Shown here piece by piece: positions 3,481 to 4,527 of a stretch of DNA of 64,000 nucleotides (position 1 is its first letter; each line of letters starts with the position of its first letter). The stretch lies in the NCBI RefSeq assembly GCF_009914755.1, contig NC_060925.1; one strand, written 5' to 3'. Source of the stretch: the human T2T-CHM13v2.0 reference genome, Homo sapiens. The notes beneath the pieces were generated by a model. That model had not been told where the DNA came from and did not search any database. It saw nothing but the letters and a program-made list of their open reading frames with translations. The position numbers were made by a program, and so were the translations under genes.

Positions 3481-4346
3481 AGGACAGAAACAACTGGTTC
3501 AGGAGCCCTTGCCAGCCTCTAGAGAAATCCCAGAACACTCAGCCCTGACACATTAATACCCTGCACAGATCGGAGACTGCTGGCCATGCAGACTCACCAA
3601 GCCACAGACTTGTCTTCCGCAAGCATGTTCTTACCTCAGCCACGAAGTGACCAAGCCACATGTACTAAGGGTTGAAATCAAAGATATGTACAGGGTATTA
3701 AACAAATACCAAGGGGAACAGTTAACTTGAATACAAGGTCAAAATCAGCAACAAGTTCTATGATCCAGTGCTGATATCAGATACTAGCTTCAAGGACAAT
3801 TTCTTTTCGAAGGCTTATTCCAGATTCGTGAGGCTAGCATGAGATGTATGCATTTGCCAGGGACAAATTTATACTTCTGAATTAACCCATGCAGCAAAAG
3901 CTATGCATCTGCTCACAGTCTATTTAGAAGCATTTGTGGTGAACAGTGGAGGGGCCCAACTTGTCATACTCCTGCTTGCTAGTGCACATCTGCTGGAAGG
4001 TGGACAGTGAGGTCAGGATGGAGCCGCCGATCCACACCGAGTACTTTCGCTCTCGGGGTGCAATGATCTTGATCTTCATGGTGCTAGGTGCCAGGGCAGT
4101 GATTGCCTTCTGCATCCTGTTGGTGATGTCTGGGTACATGGTGGTGCCGCTGGACAGCACTGTGTTGGCGTACAGGTCTTTGAAGATGTCCACATCACAC
4201 TTCATGATGCAGTTGAAGGTGGTCTTGTGGGTGCCACAGGATTCCATGCCCAGGAAGGAAGACTGGAACAGCACCTCCGGACACCGGAACCGTTCGTTGC
4301 CGATGGTGATGACCTGGCCGTCGGGCAGCTTGTAGCTCTTCTCCAG
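3481..4346 (-). pseudogene. Processed gamma-actin (ACTG1-derived) fragment: codons ~236-375 plus ~440 nt of 3'UTR, no poly(A)
   Basis: Intronless LEKSY...VHHKCF, 20 substitutions in 140 aa versus recalled cytoplasmic actin; UTR motifs GCTGCATGGGTTAATT and CTGGAATAAGCCTTCGAAAAGAAATTGTCCTTGAAGCT match ACTG1 rather than ACTB. Confidence 0.92.
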
Positions 4347-4527
4347 CTTTTTGTCATCAGCTGTAGCTGTTCTTTGTACCATCTTCTTTCTGTGAGCTGT
4401 ACCCTTGTCCCCATTCTGGACCTGATCCGGAAGTTTGGCTAACTTTTCTTGATTTGTGCTGTTGGTTAATCTGAAGCAGAGAAGGTCTTCCAACTCCAGT
4501 GTGCAGCAAGAACAAGATGGCTGCCCA
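4345..4527 (-). pseudogene. Processed BTF3L4 (beta-NAC-like) 5' fragment: 5'UTR plus first ~35 codons, fused to the actin fragment
   Basis: [38 protein letters not shown] resembles [39 protein letters not shown]; no upstream MKETI and codons AATCAAGAAAAGTTAGCCAAACTT favour BTF3L4 over BTF3; start ATG now ACA (4455-4457). Confidence 0.85.

What the first reader, a model, noticed from the sequence alone, without database searches (positions are those of the whole stretch)
3481..4527. Chimeric BTF3L4::ACTG1 processed pseudogene joined in frame at a 2-nt microhomology
Seen: on the - strand, BTF3L4-like 5'UTR and N-terminal codons run directly into actin codon 236 at GACAAAAAG-CT-GGAGAAGAGCTAC (CT at 4345-4346), with no introns in either part. 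Knowledge: recalled parents read AAAAAGCTTCAG (BTF3L4) and TCTCTGGAGAAG (ACTG1), so CT is shared. The parents are on different chromosomes and neither break is at an exon boundary as I recall, which argues against read-through or trans-splicing. Inference: template switching between two cellular mRNAs during L1-mediated reverse transcription. mRNA-mRNA chimeras are rarer than U6-L1 chimeras, and standard annotation may record only the actin half.
Basis: partly seen in the sequence, partly recalled or inferred. Interest (0 to 1): 0.8.

Follow-up and report, generated by a model that had tools for sequence, protein, structure and literature searches.

The report
BTF3L4–ACTG1 composite dead retrocopy
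A dead, intron-less copy of the start of the BTF3L4 message is joined to the back half of a gamma-actin message inside an intron of C1orf146; the join is real, but it looks more like two separate insertions than one rare chimeric event.

Summary
On the minus strand, 4525-4345 is the spliced first 181 nt of BTF3L4 mRNA. 4346-3481 is spliced ACTG1 from codon 236 through 443 nt of 3'UTR. The two overlap at CT, and neither break lies at an exon border. The junction is single-copy in this genome.

- The ACTG1 3'UTR stops about 290 nt short, with no polyA and no target-site duplication.
- It abuts an older L1 5'UTR, and the 5' side abuts a different, inverted L1 ORF2 fragment.
- The halves differ in private divergence: BTF3L4 20/179 (11.2%), ACTG1 42/838 (5.0%), Fisher p=0.003. 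The first 181 nt are not intrinsically fast in five other BTF3L4 retrocopies.

An A5 tract sits just before the join, and the 5' part is not a full-length RNA copy. I therefore favour two steps (about 0.5): an older BTF3L4 retrocopy, later interrupted by an ACTG1 cDNA, with the distal part lost. A single-event chimera stays open (about 0.3). Only primate orthologues can decide. It shows no sign of function. Interest is low.

The parts
4528..4790 (+). Flank: old L1 ORF2 C-terminal fragment ('L1b'). It is sense on the + strand, so antisense to the composite, and it is cut off at its 5' side by the insertion.
   Evidence: tblastx links 4529-4787 to the region downstream of the RT domain in the Pfam-verified L1 at 7004-12241, in the opposite orientation to L1a. 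blastn links 4690-4778 to 59636-59723.
4527..4542 (-). Candidate L1-endonuclease target: TTT|AAGAAATCTTCCT, a 13-nt possible 5' copy of a target-site duplication that ends at the insert.
   Evidence: Read. An endonuclease-like hexamer 7-20 nt upstream of a random position occurs at about 10% of positions in this window. No second copy lies downstream.
4526..4526 (-). One extra G ahead of the first BTF3L4 base, possibly cap-derived.
   Evidence: Alignment. The independent retrocopy L003 starts the same way. The cap origin is inference.
4345..4525 (-). BTF3L4 mRNA nt 1-181: exon 1 at 4525-4471, exon 2 at 4470-4404, exon 3 up to AAAAAGCT at 4403-4345. The start codon is lost (ATG to ACA).
   Evidence: There are 22 of 181 mismatches to the parent and one 3-nt gap.
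4345..4346 (-). CT shared by both parents at the join.
3924..4346 (-). ACTG1 codons 236-375 plus the stop codon (3926-3924). Exon joins are at 4250|4249 and 4068|4067.
   Evidence: (Pfam Actin, E=1.3e-49).
3481..3923 (-). First 443 nt of the ACTG1 3'UTR. It ends abruptly, with the last ~290 nt and the polyA absent.
   Evidence: polyA of retrocopy L014 lies ~290 nt past the break.
1..3480 (-). Flank: older L1 ('L1a'), sense on the minus strand and truncated within its 5'UTR at or near 3480. ORF1 lies at about 2491-2769 and EN at about 632-1610. It is interrupted by Alus at about 2170-2477 and 20-340, and continues about 2.8 kb beyond the window start.

Best explanation
This is a two-step composite, not a one-step chimera.

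Step 1 (inferred). A BTF3L4 mRNA was retrocopied by L1 machinery into an old L1 ORF2 fragment at TTT|AAGAAATCTTCCT. The copy reached the mRNA 5' end and carries one extra G.

Step 2 (inferred). Clearly later, an ACTG1 cDNA that was 5'-truncated at codon 236 entered that retrocopy in the same orientation, just after AAAAAGCT. The CT overlap is the usual short microhomology at a truncated 5' junction.

Loss of the distal part. Everything distal is gone: the last ~290 nt of the ACTG1 3'UTR, its polyA, the rest of the BTF3L4 copy, the downstream target duplication and adjoining L1 sequence. Two routes could explain this, and I cannot separate them. The ACTG1 cDNA may have been captured during repair of a break, with deletion in the same event. 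Or a later deletion may have removed the distal part. Either way the ACTG1 3'UTR now abuts the 5'UTR of an older L1.

Function. The product is a decaying pseudogene and the open fused frame is accidental.

Shown: the anatomy, the parents, the break points, the missing 3' end and the relative divergences. Inferred: the order of events and their mechanism.
For: (a) Ages differ. Private changes are 20/179 (11.2%) in the BTF3L4 part and 42/838 (5.0%) in the ACTG1 part, Fisher p=0.003; for non-CpG sites, 17/171 against 31/800, p=0.003. The same three-point K2P yardstick gives 0.115 against 0.052. Sliding 179-site windows inside ACTG1 give 3-16 changes, never 20.

(b) The first 181 nt are not intrinsically fast. 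In 5 of 5 other BTF3L4 retrocopies the ratio of first-181 to rest is 0.39-1.32, none significant.

(c) The join is preceded by AC|AAAAAGCT, an A-run at the distance expected for the start of a short target duplication of a nested L1-type insertion.

(d) The 5' part is an mRNA's first 181 nt only. That is what an interrupted host retrocopy looks like, whereas described template-switch chimeras have full-length 5' parts (PMC2104539, Background read).

(e) The outer 5' junction has an endonuclease-like site 13 nt upstream, with a chance frequency of about 0.10. This fits ordinary target-primed insertion of the outer element.

(f) The ACTG1 part is truncated at both ends, with no polyA. The flanks are two non-contiguous L1 pieces in opposite orientation, so target DNA was lost.

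(g) The actin part evolves without actin-like constraint: 19 of 140 residues are changed.
Against: The divergence contrast rests on 179 sites. The ACTG1 part is itself heterogeneous (CDS 29/399 against UTR 13/439, p=0.006), and BTF3L4 against ACTG1 CDS alone gives p=0.15.

Five of the 20 BTF3L4 changes are shared only with an old retrocopy on contig 12. Without them p=0.10. A diverged source transcript could therefore explain part of the excess.

AC|AAAA is not among the nine common endonuclease hexamers I tested, and an 8-nt duplication would be short.

No remnant of the rest of the BTF3L4 copy, of a polyA or of a second duplication copy exists in the window or 10 kb upstream. The model therefore needs an unobserved deletion of more than 1 kb.

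No outgroup genome could be consulted.
Confidence: 0.5

Rival explanations
1. One-step break-repair or endonuclease-independent event. A DNA break between the two L1 pieces was repaired by reverse transcription primed inside the ACTG1 3'UTR. The enzyme then switched at CT onto BTF3L4 mRNA and ran to its cap. Alternatively, two separate cDNA fragments were co-captured. Target DNA was lost in the same event.
For: It explains in one event the missing polyA, the absent duplication, the truncation of ACTG1 at both ends, the non-contiguous flanks and the 2-nt overlap. Capture of spliced mRNA fragments without polyA, joined by 1-5 nt microhomologies and sometimes several per site, has been seen experimentally in mouse zygotes (PMC4516963, passages read).
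Against: It predicts equal age of the halves; observed are 11.2% against 5.0%, p=0.003. The endonuclease-like site 13 nt upstream of the 5' end would be coincidence, at about 0.10. So would the A5 tract at the join.
Confidence: 0.2
2. One reading: a canonical L1 target-primed reverse transcription of ACTG1 mRNA from its polyA tail, then a template switch at codon 236 onto BTF3L4 mRNA. This gives a bipartite chimeric retrocopy. A later deletion removed its 3' end.
For: The join is direct, in the same orientation and has 2-nt microhomology. Both breaks are inside exons. The 5' end reaches the transcription start and the outer 5' flank has an endonuclease-like site. Such chimeras are described in mammals (PMC2104539).
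Against: Divergence is unequal. The 5' part is not a full-length RNA copy. There is no polyA or flanking repeat, so two of the five listed hallmarks fail and a later deletion must be added.
Confidence: 0.12
3. Retrocopy of a pre-formed hybrid RNA, made by RNA ligation of two cleaved mRNAs, by a transient fusion gene, or from a transcript of an already diverged BTF3L4 pseudogene joined to ACTG1.
For: It would give a direct join in the same orientation. The five changes shared only with the contig-12 retrocopy hint that the BTF3L4 template may not have been the present gene.
Against: Neither break is at a splice site. No second copy of the junction exists in the genome, and the diagnostic 21-mer occurs at only two loci. 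The shared changes may be chance: I expect roughly 2 by chance on my own rough estimate (no call), against 5 observed.
Confidence: 0.05
4. Tripartite chimera BTF3L4-ACTG1-L1. Reverse transcription started on the downstream L1's polyA, left it in the 5'UTR for ACTG1 mRNA, then jumped to BTF3L4 mRNA.
For: The L1 lies directly downstream in the same orientation, truncated in its 5'UTR at or near the ACTG1 break, with no filler evident. Its tail lies about 6.3 kb away.
Against: The L1 is far older than the ACTG1 part. Its three-point branch is 0.137 (range 0.095-0.170; 10 relatives, about 480 nt) against 0.052. All 39 non-self matches scored for its 3' region, out of 7287 first-look candidates, are only 69-77% identical. 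No flanking repeat of the 5' target was found after its tail.
Confidence: 0.03

Closest known systems
Nested retro-insertions (a 5'-truncated processed pseudogene inside an older processed pseudogene)
   Same: Both parts are intron-less. The older element lies outside and the younger inside. Orientation is compatible, an A-run precedes the inner 5' junction, and that junction shows short microhomology.
   Different: The inner polyA, both downstream duplication copies and the distal half of the host copy are missing. The nesting cannot be seen directly.
Bipartite chimeric retrogenes formed by L1 template switching (Buzdin and co-workers; features as listed in PMC2104539)
   Same: Two cellular RNAs are joined directly in the same orientation. 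The 3' part is 5'-truncated at an arbitrary site.
   Different: The 5' part is not a full-length RNA copy. There are no flanking direct repeats and no polyA. The halves differ in divergence.
RT-product-mediated double-strand-break repair / endonuclease-independent insertion (PMC4516963)
   Same: The ACTG1 piece is a spliced mRNA fragment truncated at both ends, without polyA or duplication. One junction has 2-nt microhomology, and the flanking DNA is not contiguous.
   Different: Those cases are fresh experimental events with a known pre-insertion sequence. Here the pre-insertion state is unknown, and the outer 5' junction looks endonuclease-made.
ACTG1 processed pseudogenes of the same cohort (contig 1 27.17 Mb, contig 6 46.04 Mb, contig 3 142.24 and 12.07 Mb, contig 5 15.39 Mb)
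   Same: They are 88-90% identical to the ACTG1 part over 866 nt and have similar private divergence (5.2-7.1%). They share an 8-nt 3'UTR stretch that the present gene lacks.
   Different: Those copies run on through the whole 3'UTR, and they extend further 5'. They are not joined to BTF3L4.

Membership tests
Processed (L1-mediated) pseudogene | Parent introns precisely absent | tested here: met
   Two BTF3L4 and two ACTG1 exon joins are present without introns.
Processed (L1-mediated) pseudogene | 3' polyA tail at the end of the parent 3'UTR | tested here: not met
   ACTG1 homology stops at 3481, about 290 nt before the polyA position seen in retrocopy L014. No polyA follows.
Processed (L1-mediated) pseudogene | Target-site duplication flanking the insert | tested here: not met
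   The 13-mer at the 5' flank has no second copy downstream. With up to 2 mismatches there are 8 window hits against 5.1 expected, and 1 hit in the upstream 10 kb against 0.56 expected. None is placed after an A-tract.
Template-switch bipartite chimeric retrogene | 5' part is a full-length copy of a cellular RNA | tested here: not met
   Only nt 1-181 of BTF3L4 mRNA are present. The other retrocopies run to about 940 nt.
Template-switch bipartite chimeric retrogene | 3' part is 5'-truncated, with both parts joined directly in the same orientation | tested here: met
   ACTG1 starts at codon 236. The join is direct with a CT overlap.
Template-switch bipartite chimeric retrogene | Whole chimera flanked by short direct repeats, with a polyA at the 3' part | tested here: not met
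Template-switch bipartite chimeric retrogene | Both halves of one age | tested here: inconclusive
   11.2% against 5.0%, p=0.003, and 0.115 against 0.052. However, ACTG1 CDS against UTR gives p=0.006, and BTF3L4 against ACTG1 CDS gives p=0.15.
Break-repair / endonuclease-independent cDNA capture | Insert truncated at both ends, without polyA or duplication | tested here: met
   Met for the ACTG1 part. The BTF3L4 part has a complete 5' end.
Break-repair / endonuclease-independent cDNA capture | Junction microhomology judged against the pre-insertion sequence, and loss of target DNA | not testable with these tools
   This needs an empty-site allele from another primate, and none is held.
ACTG1-derived (not ACTB-derived) pseudogene | 3'UTR homologous to ACTG1 | tested here: met
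   The last exon plus 3'UTR (window 4069-3483, 587 aligned columns) is 91% identical to the intron-containing gene on contig 17; the 3'UTR portion of the full alignment is shown. The naming of that gene by its position is recalled.
BTF3L4-derived (not BTF3-derived) sequence | 5'UTR and coding nucleotides match BTF3L4 rather than BTF3 | tested here: met
   It matches exons 1-3 of the contig-1 gene. BTF3-type copies (L009, L010) differ throughout and carry extra N-terminal codons. The protein of a near-identical retrocopy is a paralogue of PDB 'Transcription factor BTF3', not that protein itself. The gene name by position is recalled.

The most novel reading that the evidence does not exclude
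The composite arose in one event. A germline DNA break between two old L1 fragments was repaired by reverse transcription primed inside the ACTG1 3'UTR, followed by a switch at CT onto the BTF3L4 mRNA, which was copied to its cap. That would make it a fixed human example of multi-template, polyA-less cDNA capture. The extra divergence of the BTF3L4 part would then come from a diverged template or from chance.
Probability: 0.2. Interest if true: 0.45.

Novelty: new member of a known kind. Interest (0 to 1): 0.2.

Why it matters
Mostly this matters for annotation. RefSeq's ACTBP12 covers 434 of about 1046 nt of the element and names it after ACTB, although its 3'UTR is ACTG1's. It also misses the BTF3L4 part.

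The locus is a caution for catalogues of 'chimeric retrogenes'. A direct in-frame join with microhomology is not enough to call template switching when the polyA, the target duplication and equal age are missing.

If primate orthologues showed a single event, it would be a rare fixed example of two mRNAs joined during reverse transcription or break repair. I found no sign of function: 19 of 140 actin residues are changed and the BTF3L4 start codon is lost.

Tried and rejected
- **Tripartite BTF3L4-ACTG1-L1 chimera.** Attractive because the L1 lies directly downstream in sense. Rejected on age and for lack of a flanking repeat after its tail.
- **Twin-priming or inversion of one L1 to explain the two opposed L1 flanks.** Rejected because the two pieces overlap in L1 coordinates.
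- **The missing 3'UTR displaced by an insertion.** No remainder of ACTG1 or BTF3L4 mRNA was found in the 64-kb window or 10 kb upstream. All 22 hits were A-tract matches (also for window 1-7000).
- **Second copy of the 5' target 13-mer.** Hits were at chance level.
- **Pfam on 21 stop-free pieces of the flanks.** 0 of 21 matched. The flanks were instead placed by tblastx against a Pfam-verified L1 in the window.
- **A variant BTF3L4-like source gene.** The diagnostic 21-mer occurs exactly at only two loci. The 13 two-mismatch hits equal the 13 control hits.
- **Intrinsic fast evolution of the BTF3L4 first 181 nt.** Not seen in 5 of 5 other retrocopies.
- **Purifying selection on the fused frame.** Not seen.
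- **The 2003 paper listing human chimeras.** It is not held, so I cannot say whether this locus is in its tables.
- **First search with the L1 3' region.** It was swamped by an embedded Alu and repeated without the Alu.

Full report
**What is there**

On the minus strand, window 4525-4345 aligns to exons 1, 2 and the first 59 nt of exon 3 of the intron-containing gene on contig 1 at 51.937-51.946 Mb. Exon borders fall at 4471|4470 and 4404|4403, with no introns. By position this gene is BTF3L4; the name is recalled. BTF3-type copies (L009, L010) are clearly different. The protein of a near-identical BTF3L4-type retrocopy is a paralogue of PDB 'Transcription factor BTF3', not that protein itself.

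Homology begins at 4525, preceded by one extra G at 4526. Two independent retrocopies (L003, L004) begin within a few bases of the same point, and L003 has the same extra G. The copy therefore reaches the mRNA 5' end.

Window 4346-3481 aligns to three exons of the intron-containing gene on contig 17 at 82.427-82.428 Mb. Its 79- and 93-nt introns are removed, with joins at 4250|4249 and 4068|4067. This part covers codons 236-375, the stop at 3926-3924, and 443 nt of 3'UTR. The UTR match identifies ACTG1 rather than ACTB. Pfam sees Actin (E=1.3e-49).

**The join**

The BTF3L4 gene reads AAAAAGCT then TCAG. The ACTG1 gene reads TCTTCT then CTGGAGAAG. CT at 4346-4345 is common to both. BTF3L4 exon 3 continues 55 nt beyond the break, and ACTG1 coding sequence continues at least 60 nt upstream of it. 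Splicing-based joins are therefore excluded. The frame is open across the join. Of 10 genome matches to a 211-nt probe across the join, only the locus itself spans it.

- **The 3' end is missing.** ACTG1 homology ends at 3481, in the middle of the 3'UTR. Five full retrocopies and the gene continue there, and the polyA of retrocopy L014 lies about 290 nt further on. No polyA follows in the window. No remainder of either mRNA exists in the 64-kb window or in 10 kb upstream: all 22 hits were A-tract matches.
- **The downstream flank is an older L1.** It lies in sense ('L1a'). blastn similarity to seven other copies starts at 3433-3440. In the alignment, the 40 nt up to 3480 follow the same family's 5'UTR loosely, and the other copies continue upstream. 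tblastx places ORF1 at about 2491-2769, EN at about 632-1610 and the ORF2 C-terminus beyond the window start. These are collinear with the L1 at 7004-12241, whose ORF1, EN and RT domains Pfam recognises. Its tail is at about L051:7180-7330.
- **The upstream flank is a different L1 piece.** 4528-4790 is a fragment of the ORF2 C-terminal region in the opposite orientation ('L1b'). The two pieces overlap in L1 coordinates, so they are not halves of one inverted element.
- **The 5' flank looks endonuclease-made.** It reads TTT|AAGAAATCTTCCT, an endonuclease-like site 13 nt from the insert. The chance frequency of such a site is about 0.10 in this window. There is no second copy.

**Ages**

| Element | Mismatches to parent | Private changes vs majority of relatives | Three-point K2P branch |
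|---|---|---|---|
| BTF3L4 part | 22/181 | 20/179 = 11.2% | 0.115 |
| ACTG1 part | 72/854 | 42/838 = 5.0% | 0.052 |
| L1a | – | – | 0.137 (range 0.095-0.170; 10 relatives, ~480 nt) |

- Fisher p=0.003 for private changes overall. For non-CpG sites, 17/171 against 31/800 gives p=0.003.
- No 179-site window within the ACTG1 part exceeds 16 changes.
- A shorter ORF1 stretch of L1a gave a branch of 0.15.
- All 39 non-self matches scored for the L1a 3' region, out of 7287 first-look candidates, are 69-77% identical.

L1a is therefore much older than the ACTG1 part, which rejects a tripartite chimera.

Caveats on the contrast between the halves:
- The ACTG1 part is heterogeneous: CDS 29/399 against UTR 13/439, p=0.006. 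BTF3L4 against ACTG1 CDS alone gives p=0.15.
- Five non-CpG BTF3L4 changes, including an adjacent TA-to-AT, are shared only with an old retrocopy on contig 12. Without them p=0.10.
- Against these caveats, the first 181 nt are not faster than the rest in 5 of 5 other BTF3L4 retrocopies, with ratios 0.39-1.32.

**Weighing the mechanisms**

Described template-switch chimeras have full-length 5' parts, 5'-truncated 3' parts, the same orientation, and flanking repeats (PMC2104539, Background section read). Here the second and third hold. The first and fourth fail, and equal age is doubtful.

A nested insertion explains three things: why the 5' part is an arbitrary stub, why it is older, and why an A-run (AC|AAAAAGCT) precedes the join. 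It needs loss of more than 1 kb of distal sequence.

That loss could be part of the ACTG1 insertion itself. Spliced mRNA fragments truncated at both ends, without polyA and joined by 1-5 nt microhomology, are captured at breaks in mouse zygotes (PMC4516963, passages read). Or the loss could be a later deletion.

My estimates are:
- two-step origin, about 0.5;
- one-step break-repair chimera, about 0.2;
- canonical template switch plus deletion, about 0.12;
- pre-formed hybrid RNA, about 0.05;
- tripartite chimera, about 0.03.

These weights are judgement, not computation.

**Function**

None is indicated. The BTF3L4 start codon is lost. 19 of 140 actin residues differ from the inferred source. 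Changes split 22 in amino-acid-changing codons to 15 in synonymous codons, against a neutral expectation of 70-78% non-synonymous.

**Literature**

- 'ACTBP12' occurs in 4 papers (listing). I read passages of one, where it is only a name in an expression signature.
- 'BTF3L4' + 'ACTG1' + 'chimeric' gives 1 paper, on lymphoma cell lines (listing only).
- A 2025 preprint on L1 chimeras mentions neither gene (term search).
- The 2003 survey of human chimeras is not held, and supplements of such surveys were not seen. Prior listing of this locus cannot be excluded.

**Verdict**

The join is real and under-annotated, but ordinary in kind. Its origin as a single template-switch event is not supported by the available tests, and it can only be settled with primate orthologues.

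Noticed in passing
window 3913-4346 (RefSeq ACTBP12) against 3481-4526: The curated pseudogene record covers only the actin coding part and is named after ACTB. The adjoining 443 nt are ACTG1 3'UTR, so the parent is ACTG1. The BTF3L4 part is unannotated.
   Followed up: yes
window about 3497-3504; loci L012-L016; L023: An 8-nt stretch (GGGCTCCT) in the 3'UTR is present in this copy and in five other ACTG1 retrocopies but absent from the present ACTG1 gene. The gene seems to have lost it after that cohort of retrocopies formed.
   Followed up: partly
window 4399-4419 and contig 12:31728999-31729019 (L006): Five non-CpG substitutions, including an adjacent TA-to-AT that turns RIGG into QNGD, are shared only by this BTF3L4 part and a much older retrocopy on contig 12. 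The 21-mer is found at just these two loci. It could be chance or a lost variant source; this is unexplained.
   Followed up: partly
window 4526; L003: Two independent BTF3L4 retrocopies start with one extra G before the first templated base. This fits copying of the cap, but that origin is inference.
   Followed up: no
window 4380-4390; L003-L006, L010: A 3-nt (AAG) length difference in the Lys-codon run recurs in several BTF3L4- and BTF3-type retrocopies relative to the genes. It is probably slippage in the AAG repeat.
   Followed up: no
window 632-1610 and L051 about 9380-9600: The old L1 downstream seems rearranged. Two stretches (729-818 and 1506-1610) match the same EN segment of the reference L1. 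The RT region (about 1.6 kb) has no tblastx match between the EN and ORF2 C-terminal matches.
   Followed up: no
window 7004-12241, minus strand: This is a much better preserved L1 in the same C1orf146 intron. Its open stretches carry L1 ORF1 domains, endonuclease and reverse transcriptase. It was used here only as a coordinate ruler.
   Followed up: partly
L051 7530-7800 and 8436-8751; window 20-340, 2170-2477, 5090-5700: At least five or six Alu insertions pepper the two L1 flanks. One sits between duplicated AAGAAATACAAAC-type flanks near the L1 3' end.
   Followed up: no
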